Shown here in pieces: positions 2,770 through 52,933 of a DNA stretch of 64,000 nucleotides. The notes under the pieces were generated by a model, which was given only the letters and a program-made list of their open reading frames with translations, ran no database searches and had not been told where the DNA came from. How positions within the stretch are numbered: position 1 is the first letter of the stretch; every line of letters starts with the position of its first letter. Source of the stretch: Escherichia phage phita32. The DNA is taken from the sequence record PQ758395. One strand, given 5' to 3'. A program made the position numbers and the translations under genes.

Positions 2770-3164
2770 TGATTACAGGTGTGAAGATTATCCAATACCA
2801 CCTAACCAAATTGGAAGATGCTGAAAAAGAGCTTGCAGAAGTTCTGAATAGTGGATATACTTTGTTATCATGCGCCTGCTCAGACACCTACGTTGTGTGG
2901 ACACTTACTAAGAAGGAAGAGCCAGCATGGATCTTAGTGCCAAACCCTAAGATTATTAATGAGGTGGATGACTACTCTCATGACGGCCTGTCGGAAGACT
3001 GGGAAGTATGGGAAGGTGGTGAAAACCCTGCACCAGGTAAGTGGGTAAAATACAAACTACGTAGCGGTGCACAGCACGCTGGATACTCTGATAACATGGA
3101 CTGGAGTCATTCTTCACCGGAATCATTGGTAAGTGCATATGATATCATAGCTTTTAAGGAATAA
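2769..3164 (+). CDS. hypothetical protein
   Basis: ORF translationally coupled (TGATGA overlap). Confidence 0.45.
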   Translation: MITGVKIIQYHLTKLEDAEKELAEVLNSGYTLLSCACSDTYVVWTLTKKEEPAWILVPNPKIINEVDDYSHDGLSEDWEVWEGGENPAPGKWVKYKLRSGAQHAGYSDNMDWSHSSPESLVSAYDIIAFKE

Positions 3165-13509: not shown

Positions 13510-14780
13510 TGAGCGTTATTCAACAATTCGCTAACCCAATGAATCCGCGTGAAACTGTTTTACTGGCTCACGGCATGATTAAACGTGTTAGCATCAAGCC
13601 TATCAAAGGTGCTGATCCTACAACAGGTATTAAAACCACTGTGTGGCAAGGTAAGAAAATTGAATCCAGCCACACCATCTCTTTACTGATTTCTGAACTG
13701 GATTCCTCTGATAACCTGCTTCAAGGTGGTGAAGAAGTCTGGATCAGCATGGGTGATAAGCTGCTTAAACCAGGTCATCAAGACTCTGTCTCTGTTAAGA
13801 TTGATGACAAGTGGGAAACCGTAACGCCAGGATGGATCGTAAATATCCCTTTGAAGGCAAACGAGCATAACGGTAAGACCTATTACAAGGGCTCACTGGC
13901 TAAGATGGTTAAGCTGGGTGCAGGAGAGGCTCCAGCAGCGACTCAGCAGCAAAAACAGCAACAAGGTGCACAATCACAAGGCCAGAAGCAGAAACCTCAG
14001 CAGAATGCCAATCAGGACGTTTTACGCATCTATGGTGATGTGACTCAGATTGTTGGCAACGTGGTTACTGTTAATGACCACAAGATTGGCGAAGGTGCTA
14101 TGGTTGTCACTGATGAGCAGCTTAAAGATCTGGTGGTAGGTGGTCGTGTTGCAGCCATTGTTGACAAAGACACCGGAAACATTATCAGTGGTTTCAAAGC
14201 CTATCCTCCTAAGGCAGAGAACGGCACTCAAGGCTCCGGTGGCAAGCGTAAATCCTCTTACGACCCTATCGGTGTGGAAACGGGGCATAGCATCAATGCG
14301 TTGCAGATCATCCTGGATCGCGGGTTTAAGGTAGACGACCCACTGGGCGTGGCTAAAACACTGCACGTAGTCACCATTGAGCTTAAGAAAGAGTATGCTC
14401 AAGCCACCAACCGAACTGAAGATGAAGTAGGTGCCAGTGTCGGTAATGCGGTGTTGAACGCTTGTCGCCGTATTGACAAGAAAACGAAAGTTGATGATTT
14501 TGCAGCGGCAATTACTGCAGAAGCAAAAGATGTCTTGACTAATCTGGCTGAGCCGTTGTACGATTGGATCAAGAACGGTGCTGGGTCAACTGACCATCAA
14601 GAACCTCAGGCTGCCAAACAGGAAGCAGCTCCACAGCAAAACACTGTAGACGCTCCTCCTGTAAATGATGAGGAAGATGACCCAATGGATCAGAATCCGG
14701 CGCAGTATGACTTCTGTGATGACATACCTTTCGCTCCGGTAGGTTTGCAATATGGCAAAAGTAGAATCCACGCATTGTAA
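13509..14780 (+). CDS. hypothetical protein with Gln-rich linker and SSB-like acidic DDIPF tip (possible ssDNA-binding/replication accessory protein)
   Basis: [20 protein letters not shown] low-complexity linker; acidic [22 protein letters not shown] near C-terminus resembling the E. coli SSB tip; ORF reads 18 aa past DDIPF into the next gene. Confidence 0.4.
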
Positions 14781-15375
14781 GAGGTGCATCAAGTGCGGGG
14801 AGGTGAAAGACCTCTCCGAGTTCTACAAACACCAAAAGATGTCTGACGGTCATCTTAATAAGTGCAAAGAGTGTTGCAAGAAGGCCAGTAGGGAGGCTGA
14901 CCAATTTTCCTACGACTCTTCAGAAAAAGGTGTAATACGCGTGCTGTACAAGGCTCAAAAGTGCAACAGCAAGCAAAGAGGTCACCCGCCTCCGACTTAC
15001 ACCAAAAAAGAGTTTAAGGAGTGGCTATACCTAAACGGTTACAAAGAGTTGTATGATCAATGGGTAGCCAGCGGATACGACAAAAGGAAAAAGCCTTCTT
15101 GTGACAGGATAGATGATTTCAAAGGGTACTCTTTTGATAATATCCGTTTAACGACTTGGGGAGAAAATAAAGACAAGCAGACAGAGGATATTCTGTTGCA
15201 TAGAAGCACCAGCGGTAGACGGTGTAAAAATGTAAGGAGGCTGGACATGAATGGCAACGTTCTTAAAGAATGGGTATCCCACAATTCTTGTAGAAGAGAA
15301 ACCGGAATATGTGTTGATTACTACATTCATGAAAAAATTCCAGCCCCGGATGGATACCTCTATGAATACTTTTAG
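14752..15375 (+). CDS. putative zinc-finger / HNH-like homing endonuclease
   Basis: N-terminal [26 protein letters not shown] zinc-finger pattern common in phage homing endonucleases; [22 protein letters not shown] resembles a degenerate HNH_3 motif. Confidence 0.4.
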
Positions 15376-15437: not shown

Positions 15438-15653
15438 ATGACATTAGAAGATATCATTGTTAAACCTGAGAACTATGACCAATACAACCTGTCAACTCAA
15501 TCTGTAGGCCTCGGATGCGCCACAGTCAGTGCATGGCTGGTTAACGGAAAAGAGCTTGACGAGTGCCTGGAAGCACACATGTCGGTGAATAAATTTCTTG
15601 ATGAAAATACCCACTGGCTGGAGGGTGCAGGAGTATATGCTTCATGGTTGTAG
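15438..15653 (+). CDS. hypothetical protein
   Basis: ORF with AAGGAGA SD. Confidence 0.4.
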   Translation: MTLEDIIVKPENYDQYNLSTQSVGLGCATVSAWLVNGKELDECLEAHMSVNKFLDENTHWLEGAGVYASWL

Positions 15654-15656
15654 AGT

Positions 15657-15854
15657 ATGGGATTCGACTACCAATCTGAAGAGGGGTGGTGGAGCTATTT
15701 AGCTATCTGCCCAGAGACGCTGCAATGCTTCATGAAATATTCTGAAGATTTGGAGTACCGGGCGGTGGTTGATAGTGCTATTGCCCGTTATAGCCGTAAA
15801 CCTTTTTCCCACGACATTAAAACTGTGGAAGAGTTTGTTGAAGTTTTCTGTTGA
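15657..15854 (+). CDS. hypothetical protein
   Basis: ORF immediately downstream, weak SD. Confidence 0.35.
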   Translation: MGFDYQSEEGWWSYLAICPETLQCFMKYSEDLEYRAVVDSAIARYSRKPFSHDIKTVEEFVEVFC

Positions 15855-16216: not shown

Positions 16217-16642
16217 ATGATCTATGAAATGCCAAAACTGATTCGTGACGATGCCCAAAACGCTCACACCATTATTATGGGCAAACGCATGGATATTATT
16301 TGTCATAAAGATTTCTGGGAAGGAAGTTACTTCACAGAGTATTTTGGTAAACTGGACAATGGTCTGCTGATCCAGTTCTACACCGATGCGGAAAACAATA
16401 TCTGCTGGGAGTTCGAAACTGAAGATATCCATAAACTTTTCACCTTCCTCGGTATTAAGGTTGAGGCCAAGTTTGAAGAAGGTGAGTGCGACGATTGTGG
16501 ATTCTACGAGGTAACAGATTTCTACCTCCCGAGCGGTGAGAACCTTTACTATGAAAGCCACTTCGGTAACTCCAATATGCCACAGTGCTGGACTGAGTTT
16601 TTTGAAATTGCGGAAGAGGAGCTGGCATACCGTGATTATTGA
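16217..16642 (+). CDS. hypothetical protein
   Basis: ORF with GGAGA SD; acidic, Cys pair CDDC. Confidence 0.45.
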   Translation: MIYEMPKLIRDDAQNAHTIIMGKRMDIICHKDFWEGSYFTEYFGKLDNGLLIQFYTDAENNICWEFETEDIHKLFTFLGIKVEAKFEEGECDDCGFYEVTDFYLPSGENLYYESHFGNSNMPQCWTEFFEIAEEELAYRDY

Positions 16643-17090
16643 TACTGTAGGGGGAGATCTAATCTCTCTTTTCAAGAAAGGGTCGGGCCACATGATCCAC
16701 GGTTGTAACTGCTTTCACACAATGGGTGCAGGCATAGCGAAAGACATTGCCCGTGAGTTCCCTCAAGCACTGGCAGCCGACAAAGAGACTGCTTATGGTA
16801 ATCTAGACAAGCTGGGTATGTTTTCTTGTTGGGAGCATTTTGCCAAGAACAGGGTCGTATATGGAATCAACCTGTATACCCAGTTCTACCCAGGGCCCAA
16901 TGCTGAATACTTCTCAATCATGAAAGGTTTTGAGCGAGTCAACGAGGTATTCAAAGGTGTGTCATTGCCGTTCTACATTCCTAAAATCGGATGCGGTATT
17001 GGCGGTCTAAAGTGGGAACATGTAGAAGATGTAATTAATCTTGCAACCACAGATATTGATGTGGTTGTAGTAGAGTACAAAAAGTGTTGA
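16632..17090 (+). CDS. macro domain protein (ADP-ribose binding/hydrolase fold)
   Basis: VGGDLISL..GSGHMIHGCNCFHTMGAGIAKDI and FYIPKIGCGIGGL match macrodomain signature motifs; GTG 16632 (GAGGAG SD) preferred over track start 16536, which overlaps the upstream gene. Confidence 0.6.
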   Translation: MIIDTVGGDLISLFKKGSGHMIHGCNCFHTMGAGIAKDIAREFPQALAADKETAYGNLDKLGMFSCWEHFAKNRVVYGINLYTQFYPGPNAEYFSIMKGFERVNEVFKGVSLPFYIPKIGCGIGGLKWEHVEDVINLATTDIDVVVVEYKKC

Positions 17091-17111
17091 CGACCATCTT
17101 CTGAGGTGATA

Positions 17112-17154
17112 TAGTCTCCACAACAACTAAGAGAGGAGAGCACTGTGGAGACTA
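17112..17154. repeat. inverted repeat (11-bp arms TAGTCTCCACA / TGTGGAGACTA, 21-nt spacer)
   Basis: Perfect 11-bp inverted repeat just downstream of the macro gene; no U-tract, so operator or RNA hairpin rather than canonical terminator. Confidence 0.35.
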
Positions 17155-17341
17155 AAATCTTAATTCTTGCTGTGGTAGATACAACCGAAGGAGCTATATT
17201 CGAATCTGCAGGAGGGTATTTCTACCTACCATACGGAAAAAGAACTTCCGAGCCAAGTAAAGATTCAATCCTCAAAGTGTTCCCGTGTGCTTTCTGGCTG
17301 GAGATTTTGGTATAAGATTGCAGAGGATTTGGGAGAGAATT

Positions 17342-17536
17342 ATGAGAAACAAGAAAGAGCTTTACTCTGGTGAGTGGATCAACGATCAACAGGTGGGAGA
17401 GGTAACCTGCTTCCGATGTTTTACCAGGTACAATCTTAAAACTGCACCAAAAAGTGTTCCAAAGACTGATGGTTATTACATAAAAGAACCTCATTGCCCA
17501 AAATGTAAATGCCGATTATACTGGAGTAACCTGTAA
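17342..17536 (+). CDS. small zinc-ribbon protein
   Basis: Start moved from track 17285 to ATG 17342 (GGGAGAGA SD); CFRC..CPKCKC motif. Confidence 0.4.
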   Translation: MRNKKELYSGEWINDQQVGEVTCFRCFTRYNLKTAPKSVPKTDGYYIKEPHCPKCKCRLYWSNL

Positions 17537-49250: not shown

Positions 49251-50222
49251 TCAGCAACCACAACTTCCGTAGTGCTTAACCCGTTCTATAACTTCCGCTT
49301 GCTTACCCTTATTGTAAGGACGGGAGTTAGGACTGGAAAGGTATCCAGACACACGTCGAATTACGCTGATCGTTCCCTCTTCATGGTTTCCACACTCTGG
49401 GCATACAAAGCCTTTAGCTGTTGCACTGAACTCACCAGAGAAACCACACTTGAGACATTTATCCACAGGCTGGTTGATACCAAAATACATAATGTGTTTA
49501 TATCCGAAATCAACAAGAGCTTCCAAAGCATCTAAGTTGTTTTTCAGATTTGGTGTCTCTACGTATCCGATGTTGCCACCAGAGGAGATCATAGCAAAAC
49601 CTTCCTCATACTCCCACTTATCAAAAGGAGAGCTATTGATCCATACTGGCTGATGGAAACTGTTGGTGAGATATTCATGCTCGTGCTTCAACACTTCAGG
49701 ATATTCACGATCCAGACAGGTTGCAGCTTTATAGCATAGACTCTCAGAAGGGGTGCCGTACAAGCTAAACGCTAGTCTACTTTCCTTCTTGTATCGCTCA
49801 CAAGCATCTCTCATGTGCTGAAGTATTCCAAGAGCTAAAGCCTTGTCACCCTCCCTGCCCAAAATCTGACAGGTTTCATACACACCAATATACCCAATAC
49901 TGATGGAAGCGTACCCGTCATAGAAGAGTTTATCAATACTCTCTTCAGGATCCAGGCGAGCAAGAGCGCCTTCACACCACATGATAGGGTTCTGCCCTGC
50001 CTTTGTTCCTTTTAGACGGTTAACCCTTACAAGGTGAGCCTCGTATGCAAGATCCAGGTATTCGTCAAGAACTGCAAAGAAATCAACACCTTCCGTTTTA
50101 GCTTTTGCCGCAATCATTGGCAGGTTAAGGCTAACAACGCCTAAGTTAAATCTGCCAAGGTATTTCTCCTCGCCTGTTACAGGGTCGCTATATTTCGATA
50201 AGAAACTTCTACACATTATGTT
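49251..50222 (-). CDS. nrdD: anaerobic ribonucleoside-triphosphate reductase NrdD, exon 3
   Basis: CRSFL..NLGVVSLNLP .. glycyl-radical RVSGYL and C-terminal Cys cluster, colinear with E. coli NrdD residues about 390-712. Confidence 0.8.
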   Translation of the reverse strand, partial: NIMCRSFLSKYSDPVTGEEKYLGRFNLGVVSLNLPMIAAKAKTEGVDFFAVLDEYLDLAYEAHLVRVNRLKGTKAGQNPIMWCEGALARLDPEESIDKLFYDGYASISIGYIGVYETCQILGREGDKALALGILQHMRDACERYKKESRLAFSLYGTPSESLCYKAATCLDREYPEVLKHEHEYLTNSFHQPVWINSSPFDKWEYEEGFAMISSGGNIGYVETPNLKNNLDALEALVDFGYKHIMYFGINQPVDKCLKCGFSGEFSATAKGFVCPECGNHEEGTISVIRRVSGYLSSPNSRPYNKGKQAEVIERVKHYGSCGC

Positions 50223-50993
50223 CAGGGTGGTTCGCAAGTCCACCCCCGCACCTTTACGTGCTGCTGCATGTTCCCATGCAGATCAGACTATATCTTCACA
50301 CTTAGTGTGTCTACCATTTCGAGTGTCATCGGCTTACACCCTACACCGCTACATTCATCACGGTTAGTCGTTAGGCATTTCGTAACAGAACTCGTAATCA
50401 TAGTTATTAGGCGCACCACGTTTCAGGATAGCAGATATTCTTTTTCTATCTACTCCTAAAACATCAGCACAACATCTCAGACTTTTAAAGTGGAAAACCT
50501 CACCAGTTAATTTGTTGGTGGCTTTCACACCGTGGCATCTTGTGTAAAAAGCATAACAGTTGTTGTTGTATCCTTCTTGCGTATTGTCTGGGCAAGCTCC
50601 CCACTCAAGGTTGTATACACTGTTATCTTTCCTGTTGTCCCCTTTGTGCTTAACATAGGGTAAATTGTCTGGATTTGGTAAGAACGCTTCAGCAACAAGT
50701 CTGTGAACCCTTAGGCAAACAGTCTTTTTGTTCTTGCGTATCCTAACAAGACGGTAACCTGTGTTTATCTCTTCCCACGAATGAATAATTCTTTCATTTT
50801 CGTAGCGGGTGCAATAAACATTGCCCATCTCGTCAATTTCATAACCTTCAAAATCACGAATTTGTTTTCTCATTTCAGGACTCCTCTTGGTCAGGAGTTC
50901 TGTTACGTTTAGCACGGGATTGTCCGTTCTGGAGTTTCCCCGTTTAGATAGATTTTACATGAGCAGTTATAGTTTACCCATGCTCGTTACTTT
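50223..50993 (-). mobile_element. group I intron 2 in nrdD carrying an HNH homing endonuclease gene
   Basis: NrdD frame breaks after KVTGSTDG and resumes at NIMCRSF with no start codon; upstream exon ends in U, intron ends in G (complement of 50223); junction uncertain by about 3 nt. Confidence 0.55.
50364..50915 (-). CDS. HNH homing endonuclease (intron-encoded)
   Basis: HNH_3 motif VKHKGDNRKDNSVYNLEW; C-terminal HTH SLRCCADVLGVDRKRISAIL. Confidence 0.8.
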   Translation of the reverse strand: MLNVTELLTKRSPEMRKQIRDFEGYEIDEMGNVYCTRYENERIIHSWEEINTGYRLVRIRKNKKTVCLRVHRLVAEAFLPNPDNLPYVKHKGDNRKDNSVYNLEWGACPDNTQEGYNNNCYAFYTRCHGVKATNKLTGEVFHFKSLRCCADVLGVDRKRISAILKRGAPNNYDYEFCYEMPND

Positions 50994-51275
50994 ACCATCT
51001 GTCGAGCCTGTCACTTTACGATTTAGTGGAACAGAAACAAAGTCAGGATAAATCCGCTCTGCAGAGCATTCCAGAGCTAATCGTTTCAAATCATAGTTAG
51101 GATCTCCAGGGTTCATGTTGACACCCTCTTCTAGGAAGAACAGCACTTTAGGGAACACAGGTGTGATACGTTCTTCACCAAGACCCATTTTGTGGACTTT
51201 CAAGTAATTTTTGGTAATCATTCTACCAAAGACCGAGGTATCCAGTCCTAAACTTAATGTGATGAATGGAGTCTG
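50994..51275 (-). CDS. nrdD: anaerobic ribonucleotide reductase NrdD, exon 2
   Basis: QTPFITLSLGLDTS..ITPVFPKVLFF..GDPNYDLKRLALECS colinear with E. coli NrdD residues about 296-390; no start codon. Confidence 0.7.
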
Positions 51276-52072
51276 CTGTCTCCTCCCTGTGTTTCCACAG
51301 GGCCAGACTATCTCTTACTCTACTTCAATAAGATAATAACCCTTTATTGTGAGATGCTTACCTTCGGCATTTCCTTCGATAGCCCTGTGAACGTTACCTA
51401 CGTTCAAATTTAAGGCTTTTGCACAGGCGTAGAGTGAAGGATATTCACCCACCAAGATTTTCCCTTTGTATGCCTGCACTTTCCTATAGCACTTACCTGG
51501 ACAAAGTCCTGTTCGGAAAGCATGTCTCTTATTATCTTCCGGCAAAACCCACTCTAGGTTAGACGGATGATCATTCAATGTATTGCCATCTTTATGATTC
51601 ACTTCCCAATTTTCAGGGTCTTCTGGGACATCTGGCAAACAATACAAGGCAACAACCCTTGAGGTTTGGATTCGAATCTTTTTACCTTTGTGGTTGAAAG
51701 AGTACATATAACGGCGTTTAACATGCTTATTACCTTTTCCATAACCTCCCCACAATATTGGGTGTAGCATTCCACGTTTTCCGTATACGTTTCCAACTTC
51801 ATCAATCACATAGTTTGATTCTTCACCATTAAGAATGATCTTTTTCATAGAGCCTCTCCATTTCGAAGTTAGTATTTCAACTAACCCCTACACTACTTGG
51901 TTCAGAAATGTTTGTCAAGCATCTCTGCCTTTCGTTAGTCGTTACAACCGTTCCAACTCCTGTAAGAACTAGTCACGGGATTGGCATAGCTTTCGCCTTA
52001 GCGTTCCCCGTTAGCCGGATTTACCGACCCCTCTTATGAGGTTAGGAGAGTTTTACAACGGCCAGTTTGTTA
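51276..52072 (-). mobile_element. group I intron 1 in nrdD carrying an HNH homing endonuclease gene
   Basis: Exon 1 ends ..AACGGU; intron starts UAAACAAACUGGCCGUUG, whose GCCGUU can pair with the exon end including the U-G wobble (P1); intron ends in G (complement of 51276); exon 2 resumes QTPF. Confidence 0.65.
51315..51848 (-). CDS. HNH homing endonuclease (intron-encoded)
   Basis: HNH_3 motif VNHKDGNTLNDHPSNLEW; C-terminal HTH; in same frame as exon 2, separated by a stop. Confidence 0.8.
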   Translation of the reverse strand: MKKIILNGEESNYVIDEVGNVYGKRGMLHPILWGGYGKGNKHVKRRYMYSFNHKGKKIRIQTSRVVALYCLPDVPEDPENWEVNHKDGNTLNDHPSNLEWVLPEDNKRHAFRTGLCPGKCYRKVQAYKGKILVGEYPSLYACAKALNLNVGNVHRAIEGNAEGKHLTIKGYYLIEVE

Positions 52073-52933
52073 ACCGTTGACAGAAGTTAACGTATTGATT
52101 TGATAGAGCAAAGTCTGCATGCTGTCAAATACGTCTTTATCTGTCATTTGCATTGCAACAGTCTCAGCATCTGGCAACCAATGTTCCTGGCAAAATTTAA
52201 GGTTCTTCTCATAGGTCGCTTCAGCATACTGTGCCAGATAATGATCAATATGGCTCATAGTCTGACCCCCATATTGAGCACTAGCTACTGCACTAGAGAT
52301 TTGGCTAAGGATTGTTGTTGCAACCCCTATTGACTTCGGCTTACTGACATGTGCGTTACCAATGTTGAATCCGTTTTCCAACATATCTGGATAATTTACC
52401 AAACAACAGTTTGTTAACGGACTGATCAAGTAGTCAAGATCATGCACATGGATGAAGCCTTTATTGTGCTCTTCTGAGACACGGTCTGGCAGGATCTGTG
52501 TTGATGCAAGGTGTTTGCTAAGGATGCCTGCAAGCAGGTCACGATGAGTGTGTACATGATTGGTAGGCTTATTTGCGTTTTCTTTTGTAAATTCATCACA
52601 AGTTCGATCCAAGAAGCCACTAATATCTGCAAGCAGTTTTCCACCTGCCTCTCTGTTATTATCTCTTGTCTGTCTATACTGGATGTATTCTCTGGCTGCA
52701 CATTTTAAACCCATATCCATAAGAGCATCTTCAACAAGGATATGGATATTTTTTACAGAGATCGTGTACTGGTCGGTTGGCAGATTGTTAGCAACAACTT
52801 CATTAACCGCACAAGCGATCCGGTAAGCTTCTTCTTCAGTATGTCCAGACTCAAGTAAGGCGGACTCTGCCGCCTTGATCACCTTAATTCCGTTATAGAA
52901 CTCTTCTCTACCGTCCCGTTTTACAACTTTCAC
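52073..52933 (-). CDS. nrdD: anaerobic ribonucleotide reductase NrdD, exon 1 (ATP-cone N-terminus)
   Basis: MKVVKRDGREEF ATP-cone start; ENANKPT..HRDLLAGI..HVHDLDY..NAHVSKPKSIG..YQINTLTSVNG colinear with E. coli NrdD residues 1-295. Confidence 0.8.

What the first reader, a model, noticed from the sequence alone, without database searches (positions are those of the whole stretch)
16632..17090. Macro-domain protein in the replication module
The product carries macrodomain motifs (GDL.., HGCNCFHTMGAGIAKDI, PKIGCGIGGL). Macrodomains bind or hydrolyse ADP-ribose, so a phage copy could reverse ADP-ribosylation by a host defence or degrade an ADP-ribose-derived signal. The gene is followed by an 11-bp perfect inverted repeat (17112-17154) and overlaps the end of an uncharacterised 141-aa gene.
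Basis: partly seen in the sequence, partly recalled or inferred. Interest (0 to 1): 0.5.

Follow-up and report, generated by a model that had tools for sequence, protein, structure and literature searches.

The report
Phage macrodomain enzyme, Tk.4 family
This is a real and intact ADP-ribose-removing enzyme gene of an rV5-like E. coli phage, the counterpart of T4 gene tk.4. It most likely strips ADP-ribose that a bacterial defence toxin puts on phage DNA, so it is a credible but already recognised kind of counter-defence gene.

Summary
Window 16632-17090 (+) encodes a 152-aa macrodomain protein: Pfam Macro scores above its gathering cut-off, and the AlphaFold model (pLDDT 96) matches TARG1, DarG, SCO6735 and Poa1p.

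The window is a Vequintavirus. In the rV5 record this gene is already named tk.4, with product 'phosphatase'.

It is 39% identical over its full length to T4 Tk.4. A 2025 preprint named that protein AdfM because a T4 knockout becomes sensitive to the DarTG2 defence. The same sequence family also contains Adpp of Vibrio phage Gary (31-33% identity), shown in a 2026 preprint to be an ADP-ribose-1''-phosphate phosphatase inside a NAD+-rebuilding operon (NARP1).

All members keep Asn26 and Gln84. Gln84 sits where DarG and TARG1 have their catalytic lysine, as in SCO6735, which cleaves thymidine-linked ADP-ribose on DNA.

rV5 has no NARP1 genes, and this protein shares T4's short loop after Gln84. 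I therefore favour DarT2 reversal (about 0.55) over ADPR-1''-P phosphatase (about 0.2).

The 11-bp inverted repeat is real but is not conserved and is not a terminator. A promoter-like site at the same place is conserved.

Verdict: a new, untested member of a known kind, of modest interest.

The parts
16632..17090 (+). Macrodomain gene of 152 aa with a GTG start; the orthologue of rV5 tk.4 (rv5_gp204) and of T4 tk.4. Key codons are H23 16698-16700, N26 16707-16709, D50 16779-16781, N80-x-Y-T-Q84 16869-16883, and the P117-x-I-G-x-G-I-G-G loop 16980-17006.
16617..16621 (+). Shine-Dalgarno-like AGGAG, 10 nt upstream of the GTG start and inside the end of the upstream gene.
   Evidence: read directly from the sequence.
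16217..16642 (+). Upstream 141-aa gene whose end overlaps the macro gene by 11 nt. The product is strongly acidic (net charge -20, pI 4.25), belongs to PHROG 8157 and is the orthologue of rv5_gp205. Its function is unknown, and its adjacency to the macro gene is not fixed in relatives.
17087..17115 (+). Sigma-70-like promoter match TTGACG-17-(TG)TATAGT overlapping the macro stop codon. It is conserved in rV5, JLBYU08, O157 typing phage 14, L008 and L009.
17112..17154 (.). 11-bp perfect inverted repeat with a 21-nt spacer. The left arm overlaps the -10 element, the spacer holds the ribosome-binding site, and the right arm holds the GTG start of the next ORF. It is not a terminator and is not conserved in L008 or L009.
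17145..17315 (+). Downstream 56-aa ORF (PHROG 15268, function unknown).
17342..17536 (+). Small zinc-binding protein (Pfam Phage_zn_bind_2, E 8e-23). Its homologue sits directly after tk.4 in RB49.

Best explanation
The gene encodes a catalytically competent, stand-alone macrodomain hydrolase of the TARG1/DarG (ALC1-like) class. It is the Vequintavirus orthologue of T4 Tk.4 (AdfM).

Proposed mechanism, inferred:
1. The gene is expressed with the replication-region genes.
2. The protein binds the ADP-ribose that a host DarT2-type toxin attaches to N3 of thymidine in single-stranded phage DNA.
3. It hydrolyses the C1''-N bond, releasing free ADP-ribose and restoring a DNA template that can be replicated.

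It has no DarT-binding domain, so it would act purely as an eraser, that is, an orphan antitoxin. Chemistry would be of the SCO6735 type: Gln84, held by Asn26, positions the distal ribose in place of the catalytic lysine of DarG and TARG1.

Shown here: fold, class, family membership, conservation of the active-site residues, purifying selection, and absence of NARP1 partner genes. Inferred: the substrate and the biological target.
For: Fold and class:
- Macro HMM is above its cut-off.
- The AF2 model has pLDDT 95.9 and pTM 0.90.
- The top Foldseek hits in the PDB are TARG1, Poa1p, Thermus aquaticus and M. tuberculosis DarG, BT1257 and SCO6735, with TM 0.69-0.76.
- The DarG antitoxin models are the only defence-related hits.

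Link to T4 AdfM:
- 39% identity, E 1e-43, over the full length to T4 Tk.4; it is the only macrodomain in the window and the match is reciprocal.
- A clean T4 tk.4 knockout becomes sensitive to DarTG2 (preprint 10.1101/2025.11.20.689424).

Active site:
- Asn26, Asp50, Asn80, Tyr82, Thr83, Gln84, Pro117, Gly120 and Gly122 are invariant in 118 of 118 homologues.
- Profile alignment puts Gln84 on DarG Lys80 / TARG1 Lys84 and on SCO6735 Gln85.
- SCO6735 cleaves thymidine-linked ADP-ribose on DNA. Its Q85A mutant is dead and its N27S mutant nearly so (PMC9411070).

Other support:
- The loop after Gln84 is the short QF.PGPN.EY form shared with T4 AdfM.
- dN/dS is 0.11 against a deeply diverged allele.
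- There is no Adps or Namat gene in the whole rV5 genome or in the window, so the alternative NARP1-linked role has no partners here.
- Macrodomain erasers of DarT2 marks are an established phage strategy (PhiKZ AdfM, PMC13309987).
Against: - No experiment exists on any Vequintavirus copy. The Bas54 (Vequintavirinae) transposon screen described in the preprint did not report this gene or a DarTG2 challenge.
- The T4 evidence is genetic only, and comes from a preprint.
- At 39% identity function can drift.
- The same family contains a biochemically proven ADPR-1''-phosphate phosphatase (Gary Adpp) with the same invariant residues. T4 AdfM is about as far from Adpp (34-36%) as from this protein (39-40%). 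The NJ tree is star-like and does not separate the two roles.
- The loop-length distinction rests on only five NARP1-linked sequences.
- The catalytic lysine of DarG is absent.
Confidence: 0.55

Rival explanations
1. It is an Adpp-type ADP-ribose-1''-phosphate phosphatase. It would convert the ADPR-1''-P made by RES-domain (aRES) NAD+-degrading defences into ADP-ribose, as Vibrio phage Gary Adpp does within the NARP1-AP pathway.
For: It belongs to the same family as Gary KNV71_gp137. The window protein is 31-33% identical to it over about 145 aa; tblastn with Gary Adpp against the rV5 orthologue gives E 2e-14. The same N...AD...NxY[TG]Q...PxIGxG signature is present. Adpp activity was shown by LC-MS and by genetics (10.64898/2026.01.28.702374). 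Family members sit inside Adps-Namat operons in Vibrio phages Chester and Gary, Acinetobacter phage Rocket, and loci L065 and L070. PHROG 335 and RefSeq call the family 'phosphatase'.
Against: rV5 (97% identical to the window here) has no Adps or Namat homologue anywhere (tblastn E<=0.1), nor does the window. Without NARP1, the published logic gives no benefit from making ADP-ribose. All five NARP1-linked members have a 14-17-residue loop after the catalytic Gln, whereas this protein has the 10-residue T4 form. Only 2 of 80 related loci are NARP1-linked.
Confidence: 0.2
2. It is a broad-specificity ADP-ribose eraser whose main targets are not DarT2 marks. Candidates are glutamate/aspartate-linked ADP-ribose on proteins, uracil-linked or phosphate-linked ADP-ribose on RNA, or O-acetyl-ADP-ribose made by the phage's own Sir2-like enzyme.
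For: TARG1-class enzymes, including the Gln-type SCO6735, act on protein Glu/Asp-ADPr and on uracil-ADPr RNA as well as on thymidine-ADPr DNA (PMC9411070; PMC13036486). rV5 encodes a Sir2-like protein (rv5_gp080) and an RNA ligase.
Against: No bacterial defence that uses these marks is known to be countered by this family. There is no linkage to the Sir2-like gene, which lies about 50 kb away in rV5. The only in-vivo phenotypes known for family members are DarTG2 and aRES.
Confidence: 0.15
3. It is a non-catalytic binder (sponge) of ADP-ribose-derived immune signals such as the Thoeris cyclic ADPR isomers or His-ADPR.
For: Macrodomains bind such ligands in defence effectors.
Against: The residues that are essential for catalysis in SCO6735 (Asn and Gln) are invariant across 118 homologues. 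Both studied family members behave as enzymes. The one sponge mentioned in the papers I read was not described as a macrodomain. From my own knowledge, Tad1 and Tad2 are not macrodomains; I did not check that here.
Confidence: 0.05

Closest known systems
T4 Tk.4 = AdfM (anti-DarT factor, macrodomain; preprint 10.1101/2025.11.20.689424)
   Same: Full-length homologue: 39% identity, E 1e-43, and about the same length (152 against 155 aa). Both are stand-alone proteins. Both have the same invariant residues, including NLYTQF, and the same short PGPN loop.
   Different: Genome position differs: T4 has the gene next to vs and tk, whereas here it lies after the replication genes. The phage family differs. 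This copy has not been tested. The RB49 allele is much closer to it (68%), which suggests exchange with Krischvirus-like phages.
Adpp of Vibrio phage Gary (KNV71_gp137), NARP1-AP pathway (preprint 10.64898/2026.01.28.702374)
   Same: Same sequence family and the same active-site signature, at 31-33% identity. Both are small stand-alone macrodomains of a lytic phage.
   Different: Adpp is translationally coupled between Adps and Namat, and this phage has neither gene. Adpp has a 17-residue loop after the Gln and Gly instead of Thr83. Its proven substrate is ADPR-1''-phosphate.
SCO6735 of Streptomyces coelicolor (PDB 5e3b)
   Same: Stand-alone TARG1-class macrodomain. It has Gln at the DarG Lys80 position and the conserved Asn. 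It has no DarT-binding domain and no adjacent darT.
   Different: About 21% identity. SCO6735 has a longer lysine-bearing mobile loop. It is a bacterial DNA-damage-inducible gene. Asp50 of the phage family is not conserved in it.
DarG2 antitoxin macrodomain (T. aquaticus 5m31/5m3e, M. tuberculosis 5m3i) and PhiKZ gp104 AdfM
   Same: Same fold and class, and same conserved Asn. The glycine-rich loops align.
   Different: Those proteins have the catalytic Lys (K80 in DarG, K78 in PhiKZ), whereas this one has Gln. DarG has a second, DarT-binding domain and sits next to darT. Identity to PhiKZ AdfM is only 22%.
Human TARG1/OARD1 and yeast Poa1p
   Same: Top structural matches (TM 0.69-0.76). The H-x-C-N-C / G-x-G-I-A segment resembles Poa1p's HSCNC...GGGIA.
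   Different: The TARG1 Lys84/Asp125 dyad is replaced here by Gln84 and Gly. By sequence Poa1p aligns only in two short stretches.

Membership tests
Macro domain (Pfam PF01661) | Score at or above the curated gathering threshold. | tested here: met
   25.9 bits against a cut-off of 22. The precomputed PF01661 annotation is also present on most homologues.
Macro domain (Pfam PF01661) | Three-layer alpha/beta/alpha macro fold. | tested here: met
   AF2 model with pLDDT 95.9. 194 PDB chains match at E<=1e-3; the listed top 50 are macrodomains or designed proteins (model).
Macro domain (Pfam PF01661) | Binds ADP-ribose. | not testable with these tools
   Only the pocket residues (Asn26, G-x-G-I-A, G-x-G-I-G-G) could be checked, and they are conserved.
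TARG1/DarG (ALC1-like) macrodomain class | Closest sequence-profile and structural neighbours are class members. | tested here: met
   The profile search top hits are DarG, BT1257, SCO6735, TARG1 and Poa1p at E 1e-14 to 1e-12; viral and MacroD-type matches are at E>1e-3. Foldseek gives the same order.
TARG1/DarG (ALC1-like) macrodomain class | Catalytic lysine (TARG1 K84, DarG K80). | tested here: not met
   Gln84 occupies that column in 118 of 118 homologues. SCO6735 is the same, and there the Gln is essential.
DarG antitoxin (NCBIfam NF048014, PADLOC DarG) | Equivalog score (250 bits) and two-domain architecture with a C-terminal DarT-binding domain. | tested here: not met
   44.5 bits. Only profile positions 8-144 of 338 are matched, and the protein is 152 aa.
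DarG antitoxin (NCBIfam NF048014, PADLOC DarG) | Encoded next to a darT toxin gene. | tested here: not met
   The upstream gene has no Pfam, NCBIfam or PADLOC hit. The downstream 56-aa ORF has no Pfam hit (it was not scanned against NCBIfam or PADLOC). The genome is that of a lytic phage.
Phage Tk.4 family, T4-type AdfM | Full-length reciprocal homology to T4 Tk.4 with the family-invariant residues. | tested here: met
   39% identity, E 1e-43. It is the single hit in the window. N26, D50, N80, Y82, T83, Q84, P117, G120 and G122 are present. rV5's record names the gene tk.4.
Phage Tk.4 family, T4-type AdfM | [quoted passage not shown] | not testable with these tools
   Known only for T4, by genetics. 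No data exist for Vequintavirus.
Adpp / NARP1-AP | Homology to Gary Adpp. | tested here: met
   31-33% identity. tblastn with Gary Adpp gives E 2e-14 against the rV5 orthologue.
Adpp / NARP1-AP | Encoded within or beside an Adps-Namat (NARP1) operon. | tested here: not met
   No Adps or Namat homologue in the window or in the complete rV5 genome.
Adpp / NARP1-AP | ADPR-1''-phosphate phosphatase activity. | not testable with these tools
   Biochemical assay needed.
Intrinsic terminator (for the inverted repeat 17112-17154) | GC-rich stem, short loop and a following T-run. | tested here: not met
   Not called by the terminator scan. The loop is 21 nt and there is no T-run. The folding z-score is -0.49.

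The most novel reading that the evidence does not exclude
The Tk.4 family may be a single 'C1''-eraser' whose one Gln-type active site cleaves both DarT2's thymidine-ADP-ribose on DNA and aRES's ADP-ribose-1''-phosphate. The two preprints (AdfM and Adpp) would then have described two faces of one dual-purpose counter-defence enzyme. Which defence a copy defeats would be set by genome context (NARP1 present or absent) and by the loop after the catalytic Gln. A more speculative extension is that the translationally coupled, very acidic 141-aa protein acts as a DNA-mimic inhibitor of DarT, making the pair a split analogue of two-domain DarG.
Probability: 0.3. Interest if true: 0.55.

Novelty: new member of a known kind. 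Interest (0 to 1): 0.33.

Why it matters
Vequintaviruses are broad-host-range E. coli phages used in therapy and biocontrol work. Knowing which defences they neutralise helps predict host range. If this gene is an AdfM, then rV5-like phages should be resistant to DarTG2-type systems, as T4 is.

The comparison made here also shows that two recently named phage counter-defence proteins, T4 AdfM and Vibrio phage Adpp, belong to one sequence family with identical active-site residues. Homology-based annotation of the roughly 2,800 phage records that carry a copy therefore cannot yet choose between the two roles. A simple two-substrate assay would settle it.

Tried and rejected
- Upstream 141-aa acidic protein: there were no Pfam, NCBIfam or PADLOC hits and only four homologous clusters. 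The AF2 model was mediocre (pLDDT 76; the five models ranged 36-76). Foldseek gave nothing usable (best E 0.02, TM<0.3). In locus L009 its homologue lies 1.5 kb downstream of the macro gene rather than overlapping it. The 'split DarG' idea therefore has no support beyond charge and overlap.
- Inverted repeat as a terminator or conserved RNA hairpin: rejected. Folding was no better than shuffles (z -0.49) and there was no terminator call. Two substitutions in close relatives keep G-U pairing, but the arms are broken in L008 and absent in L009, where the promoter-like hexamers persist.
- Bacterial context of chromosomal homologues (P0050 from Pelagimonas; P0119 on a 648-kb contig): no darT or other informative neighbours.
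- NJ tree to separate AdfM-like from Adpp-like members: star-like and uninformative.
- Residue alignment with Poa1p: this did not come out of the PDB searches beyond two short stretches. The Poa1p structure paper is not held.
- LeRoux et al. 2022 (the original DarTG defence paper) could not be read. Statements about it rest on later papers that cite it.

Full report
**What is there**

The window is a Vequintavirus (rV5-like E. coli myovirus). The 3 kb around the finding is 96-98% identical to many such phages. The segment 16217-17315 is 97% identical to rV5 itself.

The gene runs from a GTG at 16632 to the stop at 17090. AGGAG lies 10 nt upstream. Relatives annotate the same 459-nt gene, and the N-terminus aligns from residue 1 with T4 Tk.4.

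The gene overlaps the end of a 141-aa gene (16217-16642) by 11 nt. It lies in a same-strand block downstream of four genes:
- a PIF1-like helicase;
- a DnaB-like primase-helicase;
- a family A DNA polymerase;
- a gene that relatives annotate as a single-stranded-DNA-binding protein, which has no Pfam or NCBIfam hit here.

**Is it a macrodomain?**

Yes.
- Pfam Macro scores 25.9 bits against a gathering score of 22.
- PHROG 335 ('phosphatase') matches at E 1e-59.
- In NCBIfam and PADLOC the best hit is the macrodomain part of the DarG antitoxin (E 1e-11 and 1.5e-12). The score is far below the equivalog cut-off and covers only profile positions 8-144 of 338.
- An AlphaFold2 model built on 54 homologues is confident (pLDDT 95.9, pTM 0.90).
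- Its best PDB matches are TARG1, Poa1p, Thermus and Mycobacterium DarG, BT1257 and SCO6735, with TM 0.69-0.76. Viral and MacroD-type macrodomains come later.
- A profile search of PDB sequences gives the same neighbours at E 1e-14 to 1e-12.

The protein therefore belongs to the TARG1/DarG (ALC1-like) class.

**Active site**

Across 118 homologues down to about 36% identity, Asn26, Asp50, Asn80, Tyr82, Thr83, Gln84, Pro117, Gly120 and Gly122 never vary. His23 varies once.

The profile alignments place Gln84 on the catalytic Lys80 of DarG and Lys84 of TARG1. They also place it on Gln85 of SCO6735 and the equivalent Gln of BT1257.

SCO6735 is a stand-alone bacterial macrodomain that cleaves thymidine-linked ADP-ribose from DNA with high turnover. 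Its Q85A mutant is inactive, and N27S, which removes the Asn that holds the Gln, is nearly so (PMC9411070). This phage family therefore carries the Gln-type variant of the site, not the Lys-type found in DarG and in PhiKZ AdfM.

**Is the gene under selection?**

Yes. Against the allele of O157 typing phage 14, dN is 0.118 and dS is 1.10, a ratio of 0.11. The adjacent upstream gene has dS of only 0.10.

Nucleotide identity drops to 69-88% within the macro gene, while the flanks stay at 93-100%. The gene is therefore a deeply diverged allele that has been swapped in by recombination and kept under purifying selection.

The closest allele outside Vequintavirus is that of the T4-like phage RB49 (68% identity). 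There it sits at the tk.4 position, followed directly by a homologue of the window's zinc-binding gene 17342-17536. rV5's own record notes RB49 similarities for several genes of this block.

**What is known about the family**

Two preprints bear directly on it.
1. In T4, tk.4 was the single transposon-screen hit on a DarTG2 host, and a clean knockout became DarTG2-sensitive. The authors named it AdfM and proposed that it removes ADP-ribose from DNA (10.1101/2025.11.20.689424). The window protein is 39% identical to it over the full length (E 1e-43) and is the only macrodomain in the window.
2. In Vibrio phage Gary, a macrodomain gene between Adps and Namat (the NARP1 NAD+ reconstitution operon) was shown to dephosphorylate ADP-ribose-1''-phosphate. 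It is needed to overcome the RES-domain defence aRES, and the authors named it Adpp (10.64898/2026.01.28.702374).

I noticed family members embedded in such operons in Vibrio phage Chester and Acinetobacter phage Rocket. I then retrieved Gary's gene. It belongs to the same family and has the same signature. It is 31-33% identical to the window protein and 34-36% identical to T4 AdfM.

By sequence, Gary Adpp's best PDB matches are TARG1 and SCO6735, not Poa1p. A third protein also named AdfM, PhiKZ gp104, is a Lys-type DarG-like macrodomain only 22% identical to this one.

**Choosing between the two roles**

An NJ tree of 86 family members is star-like, and the NARP1-linked members are scattered through it. 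Three observations tilt towards the T4-type role.
- The complete rV5 genome and the window contain no Adps or Namat homologue. The pathway that gives Adpp its value is therefore absent.
- The loop after the catalytic Gln is the 10-residue QF.PGPN.EY form in the window protein, typing phage 14, RB49 and T4 AdfM. It is 14-17 residues in all five NARP1-linked members. This is a small sample.
- NARP1 linkage is rare in the family: 2 of 80 IMG/VR loci, against 21 next to tk.

Both substrates carry their leaving group on C1'' of the distal ribose, so one active site could plausibly handle both. That point is inference.

I put DarT2 reversal at about 0.55, Adpp-like phosphatase at about 0.2, other eraser roles at about 0.15 and signal sponging at about 0.05.

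**The surroundings**

The upstream 141-aa protein is very acidic (net charge -20, pI 4.25). It has no family, structural or defence-library match. In locus L009 its homologue is not adjacent to the macro gene. Nothing ties it to the macrodomain beyond the overlap.

The 11-bp inverted repeat exists. However:
- it does not fold better than shuffled sequence;
- it is not terminator-like;
- it is broken in L008 and absent in L009.

What is conserved at that spot is a sigma-70-like TTGAC[AG]-17-TATA[GA]T match that overlaps the macro stop codon. This probably drives the downstream small genes.

**Novelty and verdict**

The gene has been labelled tk.4 in rV5's record since deposition. Other records call it a macro domain protein, a phosphatase or Poa1p-like. 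The family's counter-defence roles were reported in 2025-2026. No Vequintavirus copy has been tested.

It is a new, untested member of a known kind. The one point a specialist might find useful is that AdfM (T4) and Adpp (Gary) are the same family with the same active site. In the text I read, neither preprint mentions the other's substrate: the Adpp preprint has no occurrence of 'DarT'.

Noticed in passing
window 15438-15854: A G-to-T change makes a TAG stop at 15651-15653. It splits into 71-aa and 65-aa ORFs what is a single 138-aa gene in JLBYU08, O157 typing phage 14 and rV5 (rv5_gp207).
   Followed up: partly
window 14752-15375: An HNH/endonuclease VII-like gene (PHROG 1035, E 7e-41) overlaps the end of the 423-aa gene that relatives annotate as a single-stranded-DNA-binding protein. 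Only 31 of 106 related phage records cover it fully, so it looks like a mobile homing endonuclease.
   Followed up: partly
window 16600-17100 compared with L003 (O157 typing phage 14): The macro gene is a local divergence island: 69-88% nucleotide identity and dS 1.10, against flanks at 93-100% and dS 0.10. This indicates allele replacement by recombination rather than fast evolution (dN/dS 0.11).
   Followed up: yes
window 17342-17536; L004 (RB49) 2910-3140: The small zinc-binding gene (Pfam Phage_zn_bind_2) near the macro gene is its immediate downstream neighbour in RB49. This suggests that a macro plus zinc-ribbon cassette is shared between Krischvirus and Vequintavirus.
   Followed up: partly
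window 49251-52933, minus strand: Anaerobic ribonucleotide reductase NrdD appears as two separate ORFs. ORF 52070-52933 matches Pfam profile positions 1-154 plus an ATP-cone, and ORF 49251-50243 matches profile positions 263-562. About 1.8 kb containing two ORFs of about 180 aa lies between them. rV5 annotates one continuous nrdD gene, so an insertion (intron, intein or homing element) is likely.
   Followed up: no
protein P0015 (121 aa, on a 135.5-kb Logan contig): This predicted protein matches the first 39% of the 141-aa upstream gene at 100% identity and residues 79-152 of the macrodomain at 93%. One related phage assembly therefore seems to carry a deletion that fuses the two genes and removes the macrodomain's Asn26 half. 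It could be a natural loss-of-function variant or an assembly error.
   Followed up: no
L006 (Vibrio phage Chester) 3132-6138; L007 (Acinetobacter phage Rocket) 967-4471; L065; L070: Family members are translationally coupled to Adps-like and Namat-like genes (NARP1 operons) in unrelated phages, often with RNA ligase genes nearby. All of these NARP1-linked copies have a longer loop after the catalytic Gln.
   Followed up: yes
rV5 record NC_011041: 68070-68831 (outside the window): rV5 encodes a Sir2-like NAD-dependent deacetylase homologue and a nucleotide pyrophosphohydrolase next to RNA ligase 1. A Sir2 enzyme would produce O-acetyl-ADP-ribose, another possible macrodomain substrate.
   Followed up: no
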